A stretch of DNA of 26,973 nucleotides from an uncultured Verrucomicrobiaceae bacterium (lineage in GTDB: Bacteria; Verrucomicrobiota; Verrucomicrobiia; Verrucomicrobiales; DEV007). Made by a program: the position numbers and the translations under genes. The DNA lies in contig CAWVVE010000001.1 in assembly GCA_963933075.1 (NCBI GenBank), positions 1 to 26,973 on the forward strand, in the 5' to 3' direction. This document shows positions 8,052 to 26,973 of this stretch, in pieces; within the stretch, counting starts at the first letter, position 1; each line of letters opens with the position of its first letter. The notes below the pieces were generated by a model. It was given only the letters and a program-made list of their open reading frames with translations, did no database searches and had not been told where the DNA came from.

Positions 8052-8124
8052 GAGATAGGACGTAACAACCTCTACGTTTCCGGGATGTAACGGGCTCATG
8101 CCCGATGGGTAAGGTCGGCAACGG

Positions 8125-8814
8125 CTACTCCTCAACACCCATGACCCGGCTAAAACCAGAACGAAGTCCCCCGGAAAGGGTGCTTCTCAGTGCGCCAGGT
8201 GAAAGAGCACCAAGCACATGCCGGCCATATGCTGAACGGCAGAAGAACACGGTAAGCACCTCACCTTCCCAATCACGGACACTCGCCGCAGTGGAAACAC
8301 TGTTGGTTGCCGTGTCTTCAAGTTCTCCACGCGCGCGTTGCCAACCTTCCGCCAAGGCTATACCGGAAGCAACAAGGCTCGGATCTGCTCCTGATTCCAC
8401 GAGTTCATTGCCGCCCAAGTCAGTGATAAACAAGCCGGTTAGATCATTCTTTTCTGCAGCCCACGCCACAAAGCTCTCCAGGCGTTCCACCAAGGTAACC
8501 CCGCTGCCAGGCAGAACCCTGACTCCTGGCTCTGCTCCTAACCCGGTTCCACTGCCCTCAGAGCGTAACAAGCCACTTCTCAATGCACGCTCTTTAATTG
8601 CCGCCAACTGCTCGGAGGCGCGCCCGAGTTCCCTATGTTCCACCGGGAATTCAACGCGCTTCTCCGTGCCGACATCCACAGGATCCCCAAACAAATCCAC
8701 CAGGGGATCATCTTCCCCGACGACCGTGCCATCCTCGACCTTCTCGCTGACCAGTTCCGCGCCGAGGCGGGCCAGTTCATCAGTATCAATCCAAAAGCTG
8801 TTTGACGCCATCAT
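8125..8814 (-). CDS. hypothetical protein with acidic N-terminal region and C-terminal roadblock/LC7 (MglB-like) domain
   Basis: Start reassigned to ATG 8814 (or 8811) behind GAGGA, because the longer ORF overlaps parA. C-terminal half RLESFVAWAAEKNDLTGLFITDLGGNELV...EVLTVFFCRSAYGRHVLGAL...LRSGFSRVM follows the helix-beta-beta-helix-beta(3)-helix roadblock pattern. Confidence 0.66.
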   Translation of the reverse strand: MMASNSFWIDTDELARLGAELVSEKVEDGTVVGEDDPLVDLFGDPVDVGTEKRVEFPVEHRELGRASEQLAAIKERALRSGLLRSEGSGTGLGAEPGVRVLPGSGVTLVERLESFVAWAAEKNDLTGLFITDLGGNELVESGADPSLVASGIALAEGWQRARGELEDTATNSVSTAASVRDWEGEVLTVFFCRSAYGRHVLGALSPGALRSTLSGGLRSGFSRVMGVEE

Positions 8815-9586
8815 CCTTATCCTCAGGTTCCGGCAAACCCAGTTTGCCTTCAAGCTCTGCCGCGAGTTGGTCGAACGCAACTGCAGGCGCAACCGGATTA
8901 CGCGAAAGCAACCCGACAGGGACCCCCAGGCTGCTGGCCCGTAAAAAAATAGCATCCCTCGGAATTGACGTTGCGCACATGATTCCTGCCGGTAAAGCAG
9001 CACGCAGCTGCGCCTCGGCCTCAACACTCTCCGGTTGATCTCCATGCACCATTGTCATTACGATTCCGGCCACTCCAAGATTTTTTCCTTGCCGGCGAAT
9101 CGCGGCAATAACCTTCAGCGCATTGGGCACAGAGCGAACACCCAAAGGCTCTGCCTGCTGAGGGATAAGCACAAAATCAGAACCCCCCAGCACCGCAGAG
9201 GTAACACCGGACATTCCAGCAGGAGTATCAATAATCATGACTTCGTTGCCAAGCTCTCCAAGGTCATGCAGGACATTTTGCACCACTGACACATCAATGC
9301 CCGAGGAATCCCCGAATGCCCCCGAACACCCCGCGGTAAGCAAGCTGAACTCGGGTAAACGGGTATTCAGGACAAAATCAGCTGCGCGTCCTGACCCCGC
9401 AACCGCATCGTAAAACCCGGGGCGCTCACGGATGCCCCTTGAAAGAGACAATCCGACAGAACCCTGAGGATCTGTATCCACCAGCAATACGGAACGCCCG
9501 CGCCGGGCCATGGAATAAGCCAGGTTAATGGCGACGGTAGTCTTCCCGACACCACCTTTCTGGCTTGCTATTGCGAGTGCGGTCAC
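8786..9586 (-). CDS. ParA/Soj/MinD-family ATPase
   Basis: Deviant Walker A KGGVGKTT, Walker A' VDTDPQGS, Walker B IDTPAG, IPQQAEPL. Probable start is GTG 9586 (MTALAIASQKGG); the ORF extends to 9625. Confidence 0.95.
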   Translation of the reverse strand: MTALAIASQKGGVGKTTVAINLAYSMARRGRSVLLVDTDPQGSVGLSLSRGIRERPGFYDAVAGSGRAADFVLNTRLPEFSLLTAGCSGAFGDSSGIDVSVVQNVLHDLGELGNEVMIIDTPAGMSGVTSAVLGGSDFVLIPQQAEPLGVRSVPNALKVIAAIRRQGKNLGVAGIVMTMVHGDQPESVEAEAQLRAALPAGIMCATSIPRDAIFLRASSLGVPVGLLSRNPVAPAVAFDQLAAELEGKLGLPEPEDKDDGVKQLLD

Positions 9587-9653
9587 AGTGAAAAACGCAC
9601 GCAGGATACTGACATAAGCAGGCACATAGCCACTAAAATGCGCACCGTTACTG

Positions 9654-12080: not shown

Positions 12081-13460
12081 ATGATCGTCTGGAATCCCTT
12101 ATTTGCATCCTTGCTGCTGTTTCTTCTATCCATCGGCTCGCTCGCAGCTGACACGCTAAAGTTGAAGGATGGAACCATCCTTGAAGGAAAAATCATCAAG
12201 GAAACTCCAGAATCCATCCAGTTTGAATACAGCATCAGTAAGAGCATCAAAGATATAAAAACCATCAACCGGTCCGATATACAGGTAATCGACAAAGAGG
12301 AAGCTGATGAACTCGCTCTTGATGAGATCAAGCAACTCCTTCCCACCGCCAGTCTCCTTACGGCCGATGACTATGACGAGATACTGGCAGGGAAACCGGC
12401 TGCTTTCATGGCGGACTTTAAATCCAGCAAGCTGAAATCATCAGTGCAGGATATCATTGATCAATTGCTGGCCGAAAAAACCAAAGTTGAGGCCAACAGC
12501 ATCAAGGTGGACGGCAAGTGGATCCCCGCGAAAGAAGCCCAGATAGACCTCTACAACCACAACGCACTGATCCTGGCAACAAGGATGAAAGCCTCCATTG
12601 GCGATCGCAAATATTCGCTCGCATTAACCCAGTTTGAAAAACTTGAAAAGGACTTTGAGTTTTCAACCGCCTACACGGAATCCATCAACGCTGGCTTGGA
12701 GACGCTCCCAAAATACGAGGCAAGGTTAACACAGTATAAGCGCAATTATAAAAATCGAAATGACAAGCGTGAAAAAGACCTGAAATCCATGGAAAAACCT
12801 GACCGTGACTTGGCCGTAAAGGATTTTCAAAGAAAACAAAAACGCTTTGAGGAACTCAGGCAGGAAGCGAAGGAGAGCAAAGAGCGATGGACCCCGGTCA
12901 GCGAGTGGAATTTACCCAGTATTGCCGAAAACCTTGATGTGATCGCCAAAGAAACCGCACGCCTCAGTAAACTTGACCTCGGCAAGACCCGTATAGCCGC
13001 AGCAATGCTTGCGGAAGCTTTTCATGACCTCGCCGATAACAAACTGACCTCAGCGCAATCCAAGCTGGACAACGCGAAAACAAACGGAGCCAGTGGTGAC
13101 GTCACTAATGATCTTGCAGGAAAAATAGATGCGGGAAAAAAGGCTGCCAGGGCAGCTGCGGCCGCGGCCGCGGTGAAGGCTGAGAATGAAGCCAAAACTA
13201 CTGAGGACAATGATCCAGAACCCGGGAAAAACAGCAAGAAACCTTCTAATTCCAAAAAACCAAAGCCAGTCGCTGACGGCGACAAACCTGATGTAAATCC
13301 TGATCCAGCTCAAAGCGAGGACGAGGACGAGATCCAGGAAGAATCCGGAGGCATTAGCGTTCAATTAATGATTTCTCTCCTTGCCGGGGTCTTGATTGTT
13401 GTGACCATCATCGCAAAAATCTTCGTGAAATCGCCCGAGAAAGAAACCCCGGAATTGTAA
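12081..13460 (+). CDS. exported, C-terminally membrane-anchored protein resembling the Verrucomicrobial PTPDL family
   Basis: Signal peptide (SLAA-DT), DTLKLKDGTILEGKII...SKSIKD, LLPTASLLTADDY at the position I recall for PTPDL, helical core, Ala/Lys/Pro/Asp/Glu linker, TM helix plus basic tail. Family name is from recall only. Confidence 0.65.
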   Translation: MIVWNPLFASLLLFLLSIGSLAADTLKLKDGTILEGKIIKETPESIQFEYSISKSIKDIKTINRSDIQVIDKEEADELALDEIKQLLPTASLLTADDYDEILAGKPAAFMADFKSSKLKSSVQDIIDQLLAEKTKVEANSIKVDGKWIPAKEAQIDLYNHNALILATRMKASIGDRKYSLALTQFEKLEKDFEFSTAYTESINAGLETLPKYEARLTQYKRNYKNRNDKREKDLKSMEKPDRDLAVKDFQRKQKRFEELRQEAKESKERWTPVSEWNLPSIAENLDVIAKETARLSKLDLGKTRIAAAMLAEAFHDLADNKLTSAQSKLDNAKTNGASGDVTNDLAGKIDAGKKAARAAAAAAAVKAENEAKTTEDNDPEPGKNSKKPSNSKKPKPVADGDKPDVNPDPAQSEDEDEIQEESGGISVQLMISLLAGVLIVVTIIAKIFVKSPEKETPEL

Positions 13461-14793: not shown

Positions 14794-15891
14794 TTACTGA
14801 CTGACGCGCATCGGCATCAGCACATAAAGGAAAGAACCCTCTGTCTTGATTACCCCGGGACTCATCTCGTCAATCAGATCAAGGAAAATCTCATCAGTGT
14901 CTAGGTTCCTTAATGGCGCCATGAGGAAATCAGGGTTAAACGCAATTGAGAACTCTGCACCTTTATAGGACACATCGATTGTCTCGGCGGCCTCTCCTAC
15001 ATCAGGGGAATTTGCAGTTACCTCAATCTTGTTTGCCCCGAAAACACACTTGACCGAGTTTGATTTCTCGTTGGCAAGCAGCGAAATACGATTCACCGTG
15101 CTCAGGAATGTTTCGCGCTCAAGGGTAATGCGCTCCTTGGTCTCTTCTGGAATCACCTGACGATAATTCGGATAATTACCCTCAATCAATTTACTGACAA
15201 GAAGGTTGTCGTTTAGCTCAAATGCAATTTGCGATTCACTGATGGATATCTTCACATCACCTTTATCCATTAACAGGCGCTGCAACTCATTAACCGCCTT
15301 GGTCGGCACAATGACCTCGGTTTCACGACTCTCGGGAAACTCAATATCGTTCTCCACCATGGCAAGCCTGCGCCCATCTGTCGCCACAAGAGTTAAGGCT
15401 CCCCCCTTGAATGAACAAAAAATACCATTGAGCACGTAACGGGTCTCATCGGTCGAAATCGCATAGGAAGTCATCCTCAGCCCATCTTTCAGAACAGCCT
15501 GGCTGATCTTGTATTCATTGGCATCCTCAAAGGTCGCCAATGGCGGGAACTCATCCTTTGCCAAGCCAAGTATTTTGAAAAAACTTGGCCCGCTTCGAAT
15601 CGAAGCCGCATTCTTTGAGTCCACTTCCACGCTCACTTCATTAGCGGGCAATTCCCTCACAATACCCGCCAATCTCCTGGCTGGAAGAGTCGTTGCTCCC
15701 GATTGCTTAACCTTGGCCTTCACCGAGCCCGTTACCCCGACATCGAGATCTGTGGTAGTCATACGCAACGAACCTCCATCAGCCTCAATCAAGACATTTG
15801 AAAGGATCGGCAAAGTTGTCCGGCTGCTCACAACGTGTTGCACCTGTTGCAATCCCTCGAGAAAATCCTCCTTTGTGATAGTAAATTTCAT
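14794..15891 (-). CDS. dnaN: DNA polymerase III beta sliding clamp
   Basis: TTLPILSNVL, DETRYVLNG, VATDGRRLA, SKLIEGNYPNY, YVLMPMR; downstream of dnaA. Start taken at MKFTIT (15891). Confidence 0.99.
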   Translation of the reverse strand: MKFTITKEDFLEGLQQVQHVVSSRTTLPILSNVLIEADGGSLRMTTTDLDVGVTGSVKAKVKQSGATTLPARRLAGIVRELPANEVSVEVDSKNAASIRSGPSFFKILGLAKDEFPPLATFEDANEYKISQAVLKDGLRMTSYAISTDETRYVLNGIFCSFKGGALTLVATDGRRLAMVENDIEFPESRETEVIVPTKAVNELQRLLMDKGDVKISISESQIAFELNDNLLVSKLIEGNYPNYRQVIPEETKERITLERETFLSTVNRISLLANEKSNSVKCVFGANKIEVTANSPDVGEAAETIDVSYKGAEFSIAFNPDFLMAPLRNLDTDEIFLDLIDEMSPGVIKTEGSFLYVLMPMRVSQ

Positions 15892-16104
15892 GCTGACTAG
15901 AAACTCTTTTGTCCTAATGTCGTACAATCATCCATGCAGACCATTAAGGAAACCAAAATAATTGTGCGATATTGCACTGGAAAATCGGGGGTGTCTAATA
16001 CAAACTGGACCTCATCACCCCGAAATTGGATATCGAGAGCAAATTAACCCGATTTCCCTCTGGATTAAGGGCAATCATGAAGCAATGGGAATGGTCTGGG
16101 TCCC

Positions 16105-17511
16105 TCAAAGGGTAGAAAGCCGACCCCCCAAGATACTTATTTTCTGACGAACTTCCTTGGACTCCTCAAGGCGCCTCTCCACCTTGCGCACCGCATGGAT
16201 GATCGTTCCGTGATCACGGCCAAAAGCCCTGCCAATTTCAACAAGGGAATGATCTGTCATGGTTCGTGATAAATACATGGCAACCTGACGGGCAAAGGCG
16301 ATATCCGCCTTTCGACCACGGGCTGTCATATCGGCCATGCGCACATCAAAATGCAGCGCAACCTCCTTCTGGATCGCTTGAATCGTAATTCTCCGTCGCC
16401 CCTCCTCGCGCAGAATATCCTTTAGCAATCCCTCAATAACCTCATCGGTGAGAGCCTTCCCGCTCAATGATGAATAACTCGCCAGCCGCATCATGGCCCC
16501 TTCCAGTCGGCGAACACTCTTGCGGATGCGATCAGCAAGGAACTCAACGATGCGATCCTCAAGAGTTACATCCCACATGGCCATCTTTTTGCGCAAGATT
16601 GCCAAGCGGGTCTCAACATCCGGCAACTGTAAACCGGCCGTCAAACCCCACTCACAGCGCGAAACAATCCTCTCCTCAAGGTCCGAAATCTCATTGGCAG
16701 CCCGATCACTTGTCAACACGATCTGGCGTTGCCCGTCACAGATCATGTTGAATGTATGAAAAAACTCTTCCTGGGATTTTTCCTTGCCGGCAAGGAAATG
16801 GATATCGTCGACGAGCAACATGTCAGCCTTCCGGTACTTGTTCCTGAACTTCGAAAGGGTATTGTTCTGCAGAGACTCAATGAATTCATTGGTAAACTGC
16901 TCACAGGTCATATAAACAACCTTCGCCTTCCCATTCTCAAGCAAATACTGGTGACCAATGGCATGCAACAGGTGTGTTTTCCCCAGCCCGGGACAACCCC
17001 ATATGAACAGGGGATTATAGCCATCCGATCGGCCGTGGGCCACGGCGCGAGCAGCCGCTGCGGCATACTCATTATTAGAACCAATGACGAAAGTATCGAA
17101 CCTGTGGTTGCAATTGAGTCCCGCGCGCTTAATGGCCTTATCAACACCGGCAACCGGATGAGGAGTCGCCACCTTTGAGTGCGCAGGCTGCTTTTGTTGT
17201 CGTGCGGCAACCTTCACCTCAGCACCTTCGGGAACATCGGGACAGTTCTCGTTGTTGGTCTCCTTGTTGATTGAGCTAACCGGTTGCCATTCCACCTTTC
17301 GCACCTCGCCAAGAACTCCAATCACGGCGTGATTAAGAATGGCAATGTAGTTTGAATCGATCCAAAGCCCATATATGTGGTTTGGCACACGAACCAGTAA
17401 GCGGGACTCGTCTGCCTCAATGAGTTGAGTTGAGGAGAACCAGCGCCGGAATGTATCCGCACTGACCTGCTCCTTGACCTTGGAGCAGATTTCCTTCCAG
17501 ATGGTATTCAT
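16105..17511 (-). CDS. dnaA: chromosomal replication initiator DnaA
   Basis: FDTFVIG, NPLFIWGCPGLGKTHLL, LLVDDIHFL, QEEFFHTFN, RRLEG, domain IV RQVAMYL...RDHGTIIHA. Start taken at MNTIW (17511). Confidence 0.99.
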   Translation of the reverse strand: MNTIWKEICSKVKEQVSADTFRRWFSSTQLIEADESRLLVRVPNHIYGLWIDSNYIAILNHAVIGVLGEVRKVEWQPVSSINKETNNENCPDVPEGAEVKVAARQQKQPAHSKVATPHPVAGVDKAIKRAGLNCNHRFDTFVIGSNNEYAAAAARAVAHGRSDGYNPLFIWGCPGLGKTHLLHAIGHQYLLENGKAKVVYMTCEQFTNEFIESLQNNTLSKFRNKYRKADMLLVDDIHFLAGKEKSQEEFFHTFNMICDGQRQIVLTSDRAANEISDLEERIVSRCEWGLTAGLQLPDVETRLAILRKKMAMWDVTLEDRIVEFLADRIRKSVRRLEGAMMRLASYSSLSGKALTDEVIEGLLKDILREEGRRRITIQAIQKEVALHFDVRMADMTARGRKADIAFARQVAMYLSRTMTDHSLVEIGRAFGRDHGTIIHAVRKVERRLEESKEVRQKISILGGRLSTL

Positions 17512-17588
17512 ACAATCGCCCATCAACTAACGGTGGGCGAAAGGGGACAGGTTGGAAGCGACTGCCTCTCTAAGAGAGCGATTGCGAT

Positions 17589-22898: not shown

Positions 22899-24893
22899 TC
22901 ACCTCGGTAGCGGCCAACCCTGGATAAGGTCGGTGGGAGCACCGAACTGCGGGGGAATAGGAAATGCAACCTCGGCTTCCGGATCGCTGGAATAACGCTG
23001 CTGCCAATGTTTCTCAGGTAAGGGAAATGAAATGTTGCCAAGGCCAAGTGAAGGGAAATCCTTGCCGGAAACCGCGCGATCGGCAGAGACACGCACCACC
23101 AACAGGTTCAGGTCCCCCGGCTTAAGGATTTTATCGGGCACCTTCCATTCTCCAGCCACCCTTGGACTCAGTTTCTTGCCGTTAAGATAAACGGAAGCCT
23201 TCGCCTGCGATTGCCACGAAAGGGAATAATCTCCCTTGGCCAGCCCGGTGGGAACACGCAGCAGCGTGCGCAGATCCCGGAAAGCCCCGGCCACAACCTT
23301 ACCCCCTGCACGATGCCAACCCTCCGCTTCACGCCGCACGTCCGGATCCGCCGGCAACCCGGAAGGAGCATCCCGTCCAACCGCCCAGTAAACGGCATTA
23401 AAGAGCAGGTGCTGAAAGGACGGTGTGGAAAAATCTCCAGGATTGCCCAGCACTGTACAAAATGAGCGCCCGCCATCGCTGCGTGTGAATGTCCATGCCA
23501 CCGGTTCACGAACCTTGCCTTTTTCCCTCTGGCCACTAACTATTAATTTGGTTCCGGGAAAAAGTGACGCCTGTCCATGGTGCGCCAGTGACTTCCACCC
23601 GGCGGCAGGAAGATGGGCTGCAACCGGATGACTCGCTTTTTTCCGGCTGGCCATTACATTTAAGTCCACGGCATTCTTGAGCCGAGCACCGAAATCTGCG
23701 CCAAACACCTGCGGCCAGTCACCAAGCCCGGCTCCGATCACCGGTTTCGCCGCAGCCACATGCTTAAGAACGGCAGCCCTGATTTCTGCCGGGAATTTCT
23801 CGTGCGCCGCACATATCAAAAGCGCATCAGCATGCGCAATATGCCTCAACCCTTCAGGCTCTTTTCCGCCCCCGGGGCCGGAAACCGTAAAATGCACGCG
23901 AACCTCCGGGTCAAGGAACCGGCGGGCAAAGGCCTGCAAAACAGGCAGGTGCCCCGGATCGGCCAGCACCACCAGATGCGGTCGATGATCATGCGTAAAG
24001 CGGAAAGGGCTGCCACCCACGACCTGCTCACTGCTGATCGTTGGACACACGTGTGACTCAATATGCCTGATTACCAGGTCAAGGCCCGTAAAGTGGCTGA
24101 CATAGGGCCAGCGCCGCGGATTATACATGACATCGGTGCAATCACGCAAAAGAACCGTCTCCATTCCTGCGCGCACCATCTGGCGCAGGCCGAACGGCCG
24201 GCCAAGCACACACATGTTGGTGTGCACCCCGCAAAGCACGATGTGCCTTATGCCCTGCTCCTTGAGGACGTTCCAGACAACATCCCCCTCTGCGGCAATA
24301 TAGTCATTGTCATTGATCTCCAGTTGACTTGCCTGCCTAAGCCACGGTGTGCCCGGATTCCTGCCCTCCTTCTCAAGCTGTGCCGCCCACTGTGCATTCT
24401 CCCACTGATCCTCATCCTCACCCCCGTCAGACTGGTCGATCGGATAGGATGCACGCTCCTCGGAGGGAATGCGGTGACACCAGGCTGCCATGCCTTCAGG
24501 AGATTCACCGGCTGCAGGTGTCTGCAGCGCACGCTGTCGTGCCGGGTGCCCCGCATAGGCGGGCATACAGTCACTGGGTGAATGAATGATTATGGCACCC
24601 CGGGCACGTGCCTTTTGCAGCACCTTATTGAGACGGGGAGCGAACTCGTTCACACGTCGCACTGCCGTGACCGAGTGGTGGGAATCCCACATGTCACACA
24701 CGATGATGGCAGTTTTTTCCGGCTCCCATTTCACCTGCCGCCACGTGGTCGCGTGCTGTCCTCTCTCACGAAGGGTAAAGGAAAACGGCTCCGCTTTGAG
24801 ACTGGTGACCATCAATGGGGCAAGTAAAAGGAAGAAAATGAAAGTCCGGTGAAGAAGTATACCCTGTAGCAGTTTCTTGAGCATATTTGTCAT
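22899..24893 (-). CDS. exported multidomain protein: isochorismatase-like cysteine hydrolase, ThuA-like domain, jelly-roll domain
   Basis: TAIIVCDMWD and CGVHTNMCVLGRPFG; EPVAWT...GGRSFCTVLGNPGDF...LLFNAVYWA; ASVYLNG...LKPGDLNLLVVRV. Start is ATG 24893 or 24884. Confidence 0.82.
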   Translation of the reverse strand: MTNMLKKLLQGILLHRTFIFFLLLAPLMVTSLKAEPFSFTLRERGQHATTWRQVKWEPEKTAIIVCDMWDSHHSVTAVRRVNEFAPRLNKVLQKARARGAIIIHSPSDCMPAYAGHPARQRALQTPAAGESPEGMAAWCHRIPSEERASYPIDQSDGGEDEDQWENAQWAAQLEKEGRNPGTPWLRQASQLEINDNDYIAAEGDVVWNVLKEQGIRHIVLCGVHTNMCVLGRPFGLRQMVRAGMETVLLRDCTDVMYNPRRWPYVSHFTGLDLVIRHIESHVCPTISSEQVVGGSPFRFTHDHRPHLVVLADPGHLPVLQAFARRFLDPEVRVHFTVSGPGGGKEPEGLRHIAHADALLICAAHEKFPAEIRAAVLKHVAAAKPVIGAGLGDWPQVFGADFGARLKNAVDLNVMASRKKASHPVAAHLPAAGWKSLAHHGQASLFPGTKLIVSGQREKGKVREPVAWTFTRSDGGRSFCTVLGNPGDFSTPSFQHLLFNAVYWAVGRDAPSGLPADPDVRREAEGWHRAGGKVVAGAFRDLRTLLRVPTGLAKGDYSLSWQSQAKASVYLNGKKLSPRVAGEWKVPDKILKPGDLNLLVVRVSADRAVSGKDFPSLGLGNISFPLPEKHWQQRYSSDPEAEVAFPIPPQFGAPTDLIQGWPLPR

Positions 24894-25051
24894 TGTGGAT
24901 AAATCTCTGCCAGGAAGCAAGGTGCCTTTGCACTTGGCGGTAATTTGGCGAAATCCCTTCTCCGGGTTCCGGTTATTTGAAATATAGCAATATTATTGGT
25001 CAAATGCCCATTGCGAATCCGGGAAACGGTAGGCAGGATAAATGAATTGAT

Positions 25052-25363
25052 ATGGAAGGGTATACTGTAAACGGAAGAAGTTACCGGTGGTCGGCAGAGC
25101 CGGTTACCGTGGTATGCGTAGACGGCTGTGAGAAAGCATATCTCGACAAGACACTGGCAAGAGGGCAAATGCCAAGAATAGCCGACATGCTTGAGCGAAG
25201 AGGGAGGGGAACCGCACGCGGGGATTTGCCTTTATTTACCAACGTCAAAAATGCGGCCATTGTCACCGGTGTAGCTCCTGCAGTGAACGGAATCAGCGGT
25301 AATTTCTTCCTGGATCCCGACACGGGCAGGGAATGCTCACCTGCACCCCGGATACAGACATGA
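25052..25363 (+). pseudogene. phnA: truncated phosphonoacetate hydrolase (N-terminal ~94 aa only)
   Basis: VNGRSY, VVCVDG, FTNVKNAAIVTG, NGISGNFFLDPDTG match the PhnA N-terminus (full length about 400 aa); similarity ends near 25333 and no alternative frame continues it. Confidence 0.85.
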
Positions 25364-26643
25364 TTAAACGCTGGTTAACACAGACACGTCCGCCACTATT
25401 CGTGGCATACTGCATCACGGCGGCCTTCTGCACGTACTTCTGCATGTATGCCTTCCGCAAGCCGTTCGGGGCGGCAACATTTGAAGGTCTCAAGTTCCTC
25501 GACACAGAAATCAACCTCAAGACCGCATTCGTGATCAGCCAGATCATCGGCTACACGATATCAAAGTATCTGGGCTGCAAGTTCTGCTCGGAAATCGGAC
25601 GGGCGCACCAGGCAAAGGCTCTGGCTGCCATGATCATTATTGCGCAGCTTGCCCTGCTGGGCTTTGCCGTGCTTCCGGAGAACCTGAAGGTAGCTGCCAT
25701 ATTCATCAATGGCATTCCCCTGGGAATGGTCTGGGGGCTGGTGTCGCGTTACCTCGAGGGACGCAAGACCGCCGAGTTGCTCTTTGCGGGATTAAGCTGC
25801 TCATACATCCTGGCAAGCAGTTCGGTGAAGACAGTGGGCAGCTGGACCATGCAGAGCGGCGTGACTCAATTCTGGATGCCTGCAGCCGTGGGAGCCATGT
25901 TCCTGATCCCGTTTTTCCTGTCCGTCTTCCTCCTTAATCAACTGCCCCCTCCCAGTGAAGAGGACATTAAAAGCCGCAATAAACGCACCATTATGGATGG
26001 CAGGGAGAGGGCGGGATTCGTCAGGCAATTCCTGGTGGGGATGATCCTGCTCCTGGTACTGTATTTCTTCCTGACGGCATACCGGGATTTCAGGGACACC
26101 TACATGCCGGAGGTCTTCGATGCCATGGGCTATACCAGTGAACCCACGCTCTTCTCAAAGGCTGATTACCCAATTGCCTTCGGCATCATGGTGGTCATGG
26201 CCCTGCTCAACCTGGCGAAAAACCACCGCCGGGGCCTGCTCGCCGTGTTTGCCGTGATGATTTCCGGGATGCTCCTCATGGGGGTAGCAACTGTACTCAA
26301 GGACATGGGCACGATAAACGGTATGTGGTGGATGATTCTCATCGGCTTCGGCGCCTATCTGGCCTATGTCCCCTTCGGGGCGGTCCTCTTCGAGAGGGTC
26401 ATGGCTTCAACCAGGGCGGCGGGAACTGCCGTGTTTGCCATCTACCTGTGTGACGCGGTGGGTTACACCGGTTCCGTCGGCATCCAGCTCTATAAGGACC
26501 TGGGACATCCCGACCTTAACTACTACCAGTTCCTGCGCATGTTCACCTACGCCATGGCAATCACCGGTACCGTACTCTTTCTTCTCAGCTCGGTTTACTT
26601 CTACCGCAAGGCAGGGGCAGCTATCCCCCCACTGGAAAGGTAA
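25360..26643 (+). CDS. DUF5690-family MFS-like membrane transporter
   Basis: YFCMYAFRKPF, SQIIGYTISK, YLEGRK, YRDFRD, YLAYVPF...FER, DAVGYTGSV; about 12 hydrophobic helices; ATG 25360 overlaps the phnA stop (ATGA). Confidence 0.85.
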   Translation: MIKRWLTQTRPPLFVAYCITAAFCTYFCMYAFRKPFGAATFEGLKFLDTEINLKTAFVISQIIGYTISKYLGCKFCSEIGRAHQAKALAAMIIIAQLALLGFAVLPENLKVAAIFINGIPLGMVWGLVSRYLEGRKTAELLFAGLSCSYILASSSVKTVGSWTMQSGVTQFWMPAAVGAMFLIPFFLSVFLLNQLPPPSEEDIKSRNKRTIMDGRERAGFVRQFLVGMILLLVLYFFLTAYRDFRDTYMPEVFDAMGYTSEPTLFSKADYPIAFGIMVVMALLNLAKNHRRGLLAVFAVMISGMLLMGVATVLKDMGTINGMWWMILIGFGAYLAYVPFGAVLFERVMASTRAAGTAVFAIYLCDAVGYTGSVGIQLYKDLGHPDLNYYQFLRMFTYAMAITGTVLFLLSSVYFYRKAGAAIPPLER

Positions 26644-26650
26644 AGCCCGC

Positions 26651-26973
26651 CTACTTCTTCCTGCCCTCTGCAGGCAAGGGCAGGAACTGGATCGCGTCGA
26701 CGATGACGTATTTGCCCTCGGTGCCGGCAGTACCAATGATCACGGAACCTGATTTTCCTTTCTTGAATCGAAAGGTTCCCAATGAGCGGAACAGCTTGCC
26801 AATCGGGGCTGTCTTCCCCTCATTGACCTTCACCAAAGTTTCTCCATCCGCATGACGTATGGTCACGGGCACCCCATTCGCCCGCCTGACATTGGAGTTG
26901 TGGGACATGCGCACCTCGTAACGCCCCGCCTTGGGAAAATCGGCTACAAAGGTGGCGAATTTCTTGCCCTTGG
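26651..26973 (-). CDS. C-terminal golvesin/Xly-CBD-like domain of a gene starting beyond the window
   Basis: KGKKFATFVADFPKAGRYEVRMSH..RRANGVPVTIRHADG...LGTFRF...GTEGKYVIVDAIQF; frame open to the window edge. Confidence 0.75.
   Translation of the reverse strand, partial: KGKKFATFVADFPKAGRYEVRMSHNSNVRRANGVPVTIRHADGETLVKVNEGKTAPIGKLFRSLGTFRFKKGKSGSVIIGTAGTEGKYVIVDAIQFLPLPAEGRKK

What the first reader, a model, noticed from the sequence alone, without database searches (positions are those of the whole stretch)
25052..26643. phnA linkage points to DUF5690 as a phosphonate transporter
An uncharacterised 12-TM MFS-like protein is translationally coupled to a phosphonoacetate hydrolase gene. PhnA cleaves the C-P bond of phosphonoacetate (also the last step of the PhnWAY route for 2-aminoethylphosphonate) and needs an importer. 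I also recall DUF5690 genes near phosphonatase-like HAD and FAD-oxidoreductase genes, which needs verification. Conserved basic motifs (RKPF, EGRK, YRDFRD, FER) suit an anionic substrate. This would be a non-ABC phosphonate uptake route, relevant to aquatic phosphorus cycling.
Basis: partly seen in the sequence, partly recalled or inferred. Interest (0 to 1): 0.62.

Follow-up and report, generated by a model that had tools for sequence, protein, structure and literature searches.

The report
Phosphonate carrier outliving its deleted pathway
The 'phnA' here is only a broken stump left by a deletion of the phosphonate-breakdown genes, but the unstudied membrane protein beside it stays intact, belongs to a family that tracks phosphonate breakdown across bacteria, and may now recycle phosphonates in a marine bacterium that makes its own.

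Summary
The DUF5690 gene (25360-26643, 427 aa, 12-helix MFS fold) is real and intact. The 'phnA' is not: it is a decaying 94-codon stump. A roughly 3.5-kb deletion removed the rest of phnA, phnY and phnW and produced the ATGA overlap. The deletion is on 11 independent contigs; a same-species contig keeps the intact phnA-phnY-phnW-DUF5690 operon.

The family-level idea holds. In 300 Planctomycetota genomes, 26 of 29 with DUF5690 have phnX or phnA, against 11 of 271 without. The fold is closest to SLC37A4/GlpT, and most of GlpT's phosphate-gripping residues align with near-invariant positions. DUF5690 is probably a phosphonate carrier (about 0.85), possibly a phosphate antiporter (about 0.5); it is not an AepP/OPA member by sequence. 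This scan proposed the same earlier on other DNA (e1-5457906).

New here: four separate lesions in this Verrucomicrobiales genus all remove PhnY yet spare DUF5690 (dN/dS about 0.1). The three lineages that could be checked carry an AEP biosynthesis and tailoring locus (pepM, ppd, PntC-LicD), which suggests salvage into surface phosphonates (about 0.4). No transport has been measured.

The parts
25052..25363 (+). phnA stump (pseudogene): 94 codons of phnA plus 9 junction codons; its stop overlaps the DUF5690 start (ATGA)
   Evidence: TIGR02335 positions 2-92 of 408, below cut-off; 14 private amino-acid changes against 5 private silent ones, including S61L and N66K beside the nucleophile Thr; same 103-aa product on 11 contigs
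25324..25359 (+). Deletion junction: end of phnA codon 94 joined to the phnW-DUF5690 spacer; about 3.5 kb lost (3' phnA, phnY, phnW); a short imperfect GGCA-GAA microhomology is possible
   Evidence: Alignment to intact L012, L163 and L158
25360..26643 (+). DUF5690 gene, 427 aa, 12-TM MFS carrier with a GlpT-like cationic cavity (Y26, Y30, R33, K34, Y65, K69, W125, R242, D/E269, Y369)
   Evidence: PF18943 2e-128; model; Foldseek and VIA top hits SLC37A4; profile alignment to OPA; conservation; dN/dS 0.06-0.13 against relatives
24921..25051 (+). Intergenic region upstream of phnA, the presumed operon promoter and ribosome site; kept in all four lesioned lineages
   Evidence: Synteny with intact loci. 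The sigma-70 scan found no + strand site above chance, so the promoter is inferred
22899..24920 (-). Left flank: isochorismatase-ThuA gene (syntenic marker, not part of the system)
   Evidence: Pfam; directly adjacent to the Golvesin_C gene at the empty site in G004
26651..26973 (-). Right flank: 3' part of a Golvesin_C-domain gene (syntenic marker)
   Evidence: Pfam; 191 aa in same-species contigs

Best explanation
SHOWN: the window is a deletion derivative of a phnA-phnY-phnW-DUF5690 operon, the PhnWAY route for 2-aminoethylphosphonate (AEP). The phnA stump is dead; DUF5690 is intact and under purifying selection. STRONGLY INFERRED (about 0.85): DUF5690 proteins are inner-membrane MFS carriers for small phosphonates (AEP and its hydroxy and N-methyl relatives, 2-hydroxyethylphosphonate). 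They grip the phosphonate group with the TM1 Arg/Lys, TM2 Lys and TM7 Arg that GlpT uses for phosphate. INFERRED (about 0.5): they work like GlpT/UhpT/AepP by rocker-switch exchange, phosphonate in and inorganic phosphate out. INFERRED (about 0.4): in this genus the carrier is kept after loss of catabolism because the cells make AEP and attach it to surface lipids or glycans (pepM, ppd, aepZ, PntC-LicD, CDP-alcohol transferase). Imported AEP needs no kinase and can go straight to PntC. Losing PhnY stops the shared intermediate phosphonoacetaldehyde from draining to acetate and phosphate.
For: Deletion. Family link: 53 of 126 DUF5690 loci have a core phn gene within the fetched flank, 27 of 56 clusters after dereplication at 60% identity, spread across the tree. 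Planctomycetota sample: 26 of 29 against 11 of 271 have phnX or phnA (odds ratio 205); 11 of 22 phnX genomes have it within about 3 kb of DUF5690. Background: phnW in 5 of 150 Verrucomicrobiota genomes. Fold: the best Foldseek hits are SLC37A4/G6PT, with GlpT at rank 20; VIA Z 34.6, rmsd 3.2, 363 aligned. Profile match to OPA E=0.0025 local and 2.7e-5 global, against 0.6 for the DgoT-like control. Retention: four distinct lesions (window, G003, G001, L159) all remove PhnY and spare DUF5690; private DUF5690 changes 43 silent to 7 replacement. AEP biosynthesis locus in G001 and G003 and in this species (L156, 99.95% to G000 contig C303); it is co-sampled with the stump in three metagenomes. G004 has an empty site and no pepM. 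G001 has lost the 5' half of aepZ but keeps phnW; the window's species and G003 keep aepZ and lost phnW.
Against: No transport data. The sequence link to OPA is weak (probability 12-49%; no hit to single GlpT; none in PDB sequences); DgoT, sialin, NorA and SPNS2 score within 1-3 Z of SLC37A4; GlpT H165 is not kept. About half the loci have no phn neighbour, and 11-12 of 34 such genomes (MAGs) showed no phnX, phnA or pepM. pepM is not associated with DUF5690 in Planctomycetota (1 of 29 against 22 of 271), so salvage is not a family rule. The locus is polymorphic in the species (L158 intact) and mosaic by recombination, which can refresh DUF5690. The four lesions come from one genus and were found by searching with DUF5690. 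The pep status of L158, L159 and L163 is unknown. G000 is 68% complete and G001 has a partial phnZ-like gene.
Confidence: 0.62

Rival explanations
1. DUF5690 is a broader organophosphorus carrier (phosphoethanolamine, phosphocholine or phosphate itself) that phosphonate operons recruit. It survives here because it still brings in phosphate esters or phosphate.
For: Other neighbours are phosphoesterases: phosphocholine-specific phospholipase C (L003, L005), HisJ-like PHP phosphatases, purple acid phosphatase and nucleotide-pyrophosphatase-like proteins. Cavity residues are the same in orphan and phn-linked members. OPA carriers move phosphate esters (established knowledge).
Against: 90% of DUF5690-bearing planctomycetes have a C-P hydrolase against 4% of the others, tighter than a general ester carrier would give.
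Confidence: 0.2
2. In these AEP-producing cells the carrier runs outward, exporting surplus AEP or a pathway intermediate in exchange for phosphate. In degraders its main job would be to expel the phosphate released by C-P cleavage.
For: Antiporters are reversible (established). Retention coincides with a biosynthesis locus. Phosphate export accompanies AEP use as a nitrogen source (PMC8316502).
Against: DUF5690 is not found beside pepM in any locus examined and does not co-occur with pepM across Planctomycetota. In the intact operons here it is the only transporter gene, so an import role is needed.
Confidence: 0.08
3. Here the gene has no new role: it is an orphan awaiting decay that recombination with intact-operon relatives keeps refreshing, or it feeds a catabolic enzyme missing from the incomplete assembly.
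For: Same-species L158 is intact; L054 and L055 carry the stump with an L158-like DUF5690 allele. G000 is 68% complete. G001 has a phnZ-like fragment.
Against: The stump gathered 14 private replacements in 94 codons while the window's DUF5690 has 3 in 427. G003 (92% complete) has no intact phnA, phnX, phnZ or phnJ match yet keeps DUF5690 at 10 silent to 0 replacement changes.
Confidence: 0.15
4. One reading: a working PhnA coupled to its own phosphonoacetate importer.
For: The ATGA overlap and N-terminal PhnA homology.
Against: Three quarters of PhnA is missing, including the C-terminal DYIQH, TADH and SHGG motifs seen in the intact L012 protein, which carry the remaining metal ligands (own knowledge). 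The rest of the gene is not found in the genome.
Confidence: 0.01

Closest known systems
AepP, the AEP permease of Pseudomonas putida BIRD-1 (Murphy et al. 2021, PMC8316502)
   Same: Single-gene MFS carrier beside phnWAY or phnWX that keeps GlpT's phosphate-binding residues; non-ABC phosphonate uptake.
   Different: AepP is 27.75% identical to GlpT (E 9e-37, per the paper); DUF5690 shows no significant pairwise or NCBIfam match to GlpT/OPA. The paper did not find AepP in cosmopolitan marine bacteria, whereas DUF5690 occurs in marine PVC, Bacteroidota and Myxococcota, and beside many more pathways (PbfA, PbfD, PbfG-like, PhnZ, TmpA-like).
Organophosphate:phosphate antiporters GlpT, UhpT and SLC37A4
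   Same: Best structural matches. GlpT Y38, Y42, R45, K46, Y76, K80, W138, R269, E299 and Y393 align with DUF5690 Y26, Y30, R33, K34, Y65, K69, W125, R242, D/E269 and Y369.
   Different: 15-18% identity; H165 not kept; extra invariant R245 and D246 on TM7; antiport untested.
PhnWAY pathway of Sinorhizobium meliloti
   Same: The ancestral operon here encodes PhnW and PhnA above NCBIfam cut-offs and a PhnY at 612 bits (cut-off 636).
   Different: There the linked transporters are an ABC system and a putative sodium symporter (PMC10574752). Here it is DUF5690, and in the window the enzymes are deleted.
Pnt phosphonyl tailoring (PntC; Rice et al. 2019, PMC6697681) and the Lic pathway
   Same: The species carries pepM, ppd, aepZ with an NTP-transferase-LicD fusion and a CDP-alcohol transferase; the Lic pathway imports its headgroup.
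   Different: The text search of that paper found no AEP importer for Pnt. DUF5690 lies at a separate locus, and its link to PntC is inferred only from retention.

Membership tests
PhnA phosphonoacetate hydrolase (TIGR02335) | Full-length match of about 408 positions above 407.55 bits | tested here: not met
   100.8 bits, positions 2-92; intact relative 486 bits
PhnA phosphonoacetate hydrolase (TIGR02335) | Complete two-zinc active site | tested here: not met
   Only the first Asp and the nucleophile Thr remain; the C-terminal motifs of the intact protein are deleted
DUF5690 (PF18943) | Match above the gathering score over the whole model | tested here: met
   429 bits, positions 1-382 of 382
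Major facilitator superfamily | 12-TM two-domain MFS fold | tested here: met
   Model pLDDT 90.5; TM-score 0.70 and Z 32-35 to solved MFS carriers
OPA family (GlpT/UhpT/PgtP/AepP) | Sequence match to OPA models (TIGR00881, TIGR00712) | tested here: not met
   No NCBIfam hit at E 0.01; none in G000 at 1e-30; hhalign to GlpT probability 1%
OPA family (GlpT/UhpT/PgtP/AepP) | TM1 Arg/Lys, TM2 Lys and TM7 Arg phosphate-binding set | tested here: met
   Aligned in the profile comparison; near-invariant in 115 sequences; the alignment itself is weak (probability 49%)
OPA family (GlpT/UhpT/PgtP/AepP) | TM5 His (GlpT H165) | tested here: not met
   Aligned position 149 is Phe or Tyr
OPA family (GlpT/UhpT/PgtP/AepP) | Obligatory exchange with inorganic phosphate | not testable with these tools
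   Needs a proteoliposome assay
AepP | Orthology with PPUBIRD1_3129 | tested here: inconclusive
   The AepP sequence was not fetched. AepP is 27.75% identical to GlpT and DUF5690 is not detectably so, which makes orthology unlikely
ACS family (DgoT, sialin) | Profile similarity to DgoT-like carriers | tested here: inconclusive
   hhalign E 0.4-0.6, but structural Z 31.9, close to SLC37A4

The most novel reading that the evidence does not exclude
DUF5690 is a second, independent family of phosphonate:phosphate antiporters serving most substrate-specific phosphonate pathways in PVC bacteria, Bacteroidota and Myxococcota. In a marine Verrucomicrobiales genus it has been repeatedly repurposed, by loss of phnAYW, into the import step of an AEP salvage route feeding PntC/LicD surface decoration: a phosphonate counterpart of Lic choline scavenging.
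Probability: 0.3. Interest if true: 0.72.

Novelty: new variant of a known kind. Interest (0 to 1): 0.5.

Why it matters
Ocean phosphonate budgets use phnD, aepX and aepP as uptake markers. A carrier found in about 70% of sampled planctomycetes that have phnX or phnA is missing from that list, and no held paper assigns DUF5690 a phosphonate role (the only mention concerns pandoraviruses). If salvage is right, some marine bacteria take up AEP to rebuild it into their surface rather than mineralise it. The locus is also a warning: a phnA fragment on 11 contigs would be counted as catabolic capacity in read-based surveys. Both claims can be tested with existing P. putida transporter-null strains.

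Tried and rejected
1) Assembly artefact: rejected; the same stump is on 11 contigs from JGI, ENA and Logan. 2) Frameshifted or split phnA: rejected; no further phnA, phnY or phnW sequence in G000. 3) Sequence search of PDB with the DUF5690 profile: nothing to E 10. 4) hhalign of the 42-sequence profile to single GlpT, DgoT and EmrD: none significant; only deeper profiles separated OPA from DgoT-like carriers. 5) Family-wide link to pepM: rejected; the 3 of 8 against 1 of 32 among relatives rests on kin. 6) Viral contigs: no DUF5690 found with these patterns. 7) Verrucomicrobiota-wide co-occurrence: uninformative, DUF5690 in only 1 of 150 sampled genomes. 8) Promoter and terminator scan: no excess over shuffles. 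9) Literature: one paper names DUF5690 (pandoravirus); word searches of the 2023 review and the Pbf papers found no assignment. 11) Kyte-Doolittle found only 9 segments, so the 12-helix count rests on the model. All Fisher p-values overstate, since genomes are kin.

Full report
Observation. The window comes from a Verrucomicrobiales MAG (G000, 68% complete). Two + strand ORFs lie in the finding: 25052-25363 (103 aa) and 25333/25360-26643. The second is a full DUF5690 (429 bits); homologues start at 25360, giving 427 aa. The first matches only the first 92 of 408 positions of PhnA, at a quarter of the cut-off, and the remainder is not found in the genome.

What happened here. Syntenic relatives carry phnA (413 aa), phnY (476), phnW (371) and DUF5690 (427) between the same flanking genes (L012, L163, L158). 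The window equals this operon minus about 3.5 kb, from phnA codon 94 to the spacer just before DUF5690. The ATGA overlap is a by-product: the intact operon has a 52-nt gap after phnW. The identical stump is on 11 contigs from three archives, so the deletion is biological. The stump is decaying: 14 private replacements against 5 silent changes, including S61L and N66K next to the catalytic Thr. L158 differs from the window at only 13 of 1,800 upstream bases yet has the intact operon, while the stump is closer to L163. The deletion allele therefore probably entered by recombination and is polymorphic in the species (inference).

What DUF5690 is. Of 126 DUF5690 loci, 53 have a core phosphonate gene in flanks of 1.5-6 kb: phnX (20 loci), TIGR03364/PbfD (18), phnW (14), the TIGR03366 alcohol dehydrogenase (11), and PbfA, phnY, phnZ and phnA. 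One more lies beside a TmpA-like gene (396.8 bits, cut-off 400). The link survives dereplication (27 of 56 clusters at 60% identity) and is spread over the tree. In an evenly drawn set of 300 Planctomycetota genomes, 26 of 29 with DUF5690 have phnX or phnA, against 11 of 271 without. One of the three exceptions has phnZ, pbfD and a PhnX-like gene beside DUF5690. Among 34 genomes whose DUF5690 had no phn neighbour, 18 have phnX or phnA elsewhere. Kinship inflates the statistics, but the association is far beyond chance.

How it probably works. The model is a confident 12-helix MFS. Its best matches are human SLC37A4 structures, followed by DgoT, sialin, SPNS2 and GlpT. A profile comparison favours the organophosphate:phosphate antiporters (E 0.0025 local, 2.7e-5 global) over DgoT-like carriers (E 0.6). 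It places GlpT Y38, Y42, R45, K46, Y76, K80, W138, R269, E299 and Y393 on DUF5690 Y26, Y30, R33, K34, Y65, K69, W125, R242, D/E269 and Y369, nearly all invariant in 115 sequences. H165 is not kept. That these GlpT residues bind phosphate is established knowledge, and AepP keeps them too (PMC8316502). I infer binding of the phosphonate group (about 0.85) and exchange for phosphate (about 0.5). It works like AepP/GlpT but fails the sequence test for that family.

Why it is kept. Four different lesions hit this operon in the genus: the window; G003 (two deletions); L159 (two other deletions); and G001 (947 nt out of phnY). All remove PhnY, and all keep the upstream region and an intact DUF5690, with dN/dS mostly 0.06-0.11 and private changes of 43 silent to 7 replacement. 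G003 is 92% complete and shows no intact phnA, phnX, phnZ or phnJ. G001 and G003 carry pepM, ppd, aepZ, a CDP-alcohol transferase and an NTP-transferase-LicD fusion. In G000 that locus falls in a gap between two contig ends, but a contig 99.95% identical to G000's C303 carries it intact, and it is co-sampled with the stump in three metagenomes. G004 has neither the cassette nor pepM. G001 lost half of aepZ and kept phnW; G003 and the window's species did the reverse. PntC enzymes activate AEP with CTP for surface tailoring (PMC6697681). Phosphonoacetaldehyde is both the Ppd product and the PhnY substrate (established). The simplest reading is that producers drop the draining step and keep the importer for salvage. 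This is inference (about 0.4).

Limits. No transport has been measured. pepM and DUF5690 are not associated across Planctomycetota. Recombination can refresh the gene, and searching by DUF5690 favours loci that keep it. Phosphoesterase neighbours (phospholipase C, HisJ-like, purple acid phosphatase) leave a broader ester specificity open. About a third of the orphan genomes tested showed none of phnX, phnA or pepM.

Novelty. The only held paper naming DUF5690 concerns pandoraviruses and suggests an anionic substrate; word searches of recent phosphonate papers found no assignment. Earlier notes of this scan reached the GlpT-like importer idea on other genomes; I had noted it before looking and tested it here.

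Verdict. Observation partly confirmed; interpretation partly supported. New variant of a known kind (a second family of non-ABC phosphonate carriers), interest 0.5.

Noticed in passing
L014:1-8824, L067, L068, L073, L079, L081, L145, L166:737-10047, L218, L220, L069: A recurring module beside DUF5690: a GbcA-like Rieske oxygenase, one or two dimethylglycine-dehydrogenase-like DAO/GcvT genes, and often ETF with an Fe-S oxidoreductase. All 5 such genomes tested, and two more, have phnX or phnA. It may demethylate N-trimethyl-AEP stepwise (PMC10590968 says only the TmpAB route is known), or simply consume the glycine betaine that TmpAB releases.
   Followed up: partly
L013:3770-5008, L031: A 412-aa DAO-family gene sits between phnW and DUF5690 and matched no Pbf-named NCBIfam model at 1e-25; a possible further N-methyl-AEP oxidoreductase.
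   Followed up: partly
L153:4752-5303 and L143:7995-9589 (G001): G001 has a 5'-truncated biosynthetic aepZ but an intact catabolic phnW, with phnY broken: phnW may now serve biosynthesis.
   Followed up: partly
L152:8163-8618, L156:607-1041, L153:7787-8228: An inverted partial copy (about 450 nt, 81%) of the histidine-phosphatase gene borders the pep locus, perhaps a scar of an inversion or insertion.
   Followed up: no
L186, L187, L188 (G192, G202, G206): Myxococcota-like genomes with an orphan DUF5690, a pepM-ppd-PntC locus (two with CDP-alcohol transferases) and no phnX or phnA match: the same pattern as this genus.
   Followed up: partly
L003, L005: DUF5690 between a HAD hydrolase and a phosphocholine-specific phospholipase C-like gene, hinting at phosphocholine or phosphonolipid headgroup uptake.
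   Followed up: no
control genomes; plasmid hits H1-H6: Caulobacter vibrioides has a DUF5690 gene, a tractable host for a knockout. DUF5690 is also on six plasmids, three from gut Bacteroidales; pandoraviruses carry it too (10.1101/2023.12.02.569716).
   Followed up: no
window 8789-9625, 14794-15927, 16105-17526: parA-like, dnaN and dnaA genes: the window probably spans the chromosomal origin region.
   Followed up: no
window 8105-8944 (+), 12081-13460 (+): ORFs of 279 and 459 aa without a Pfam match at 1e-5; the first overlaps an opposite-strand ORF (8125-9045).
   Followed up: no
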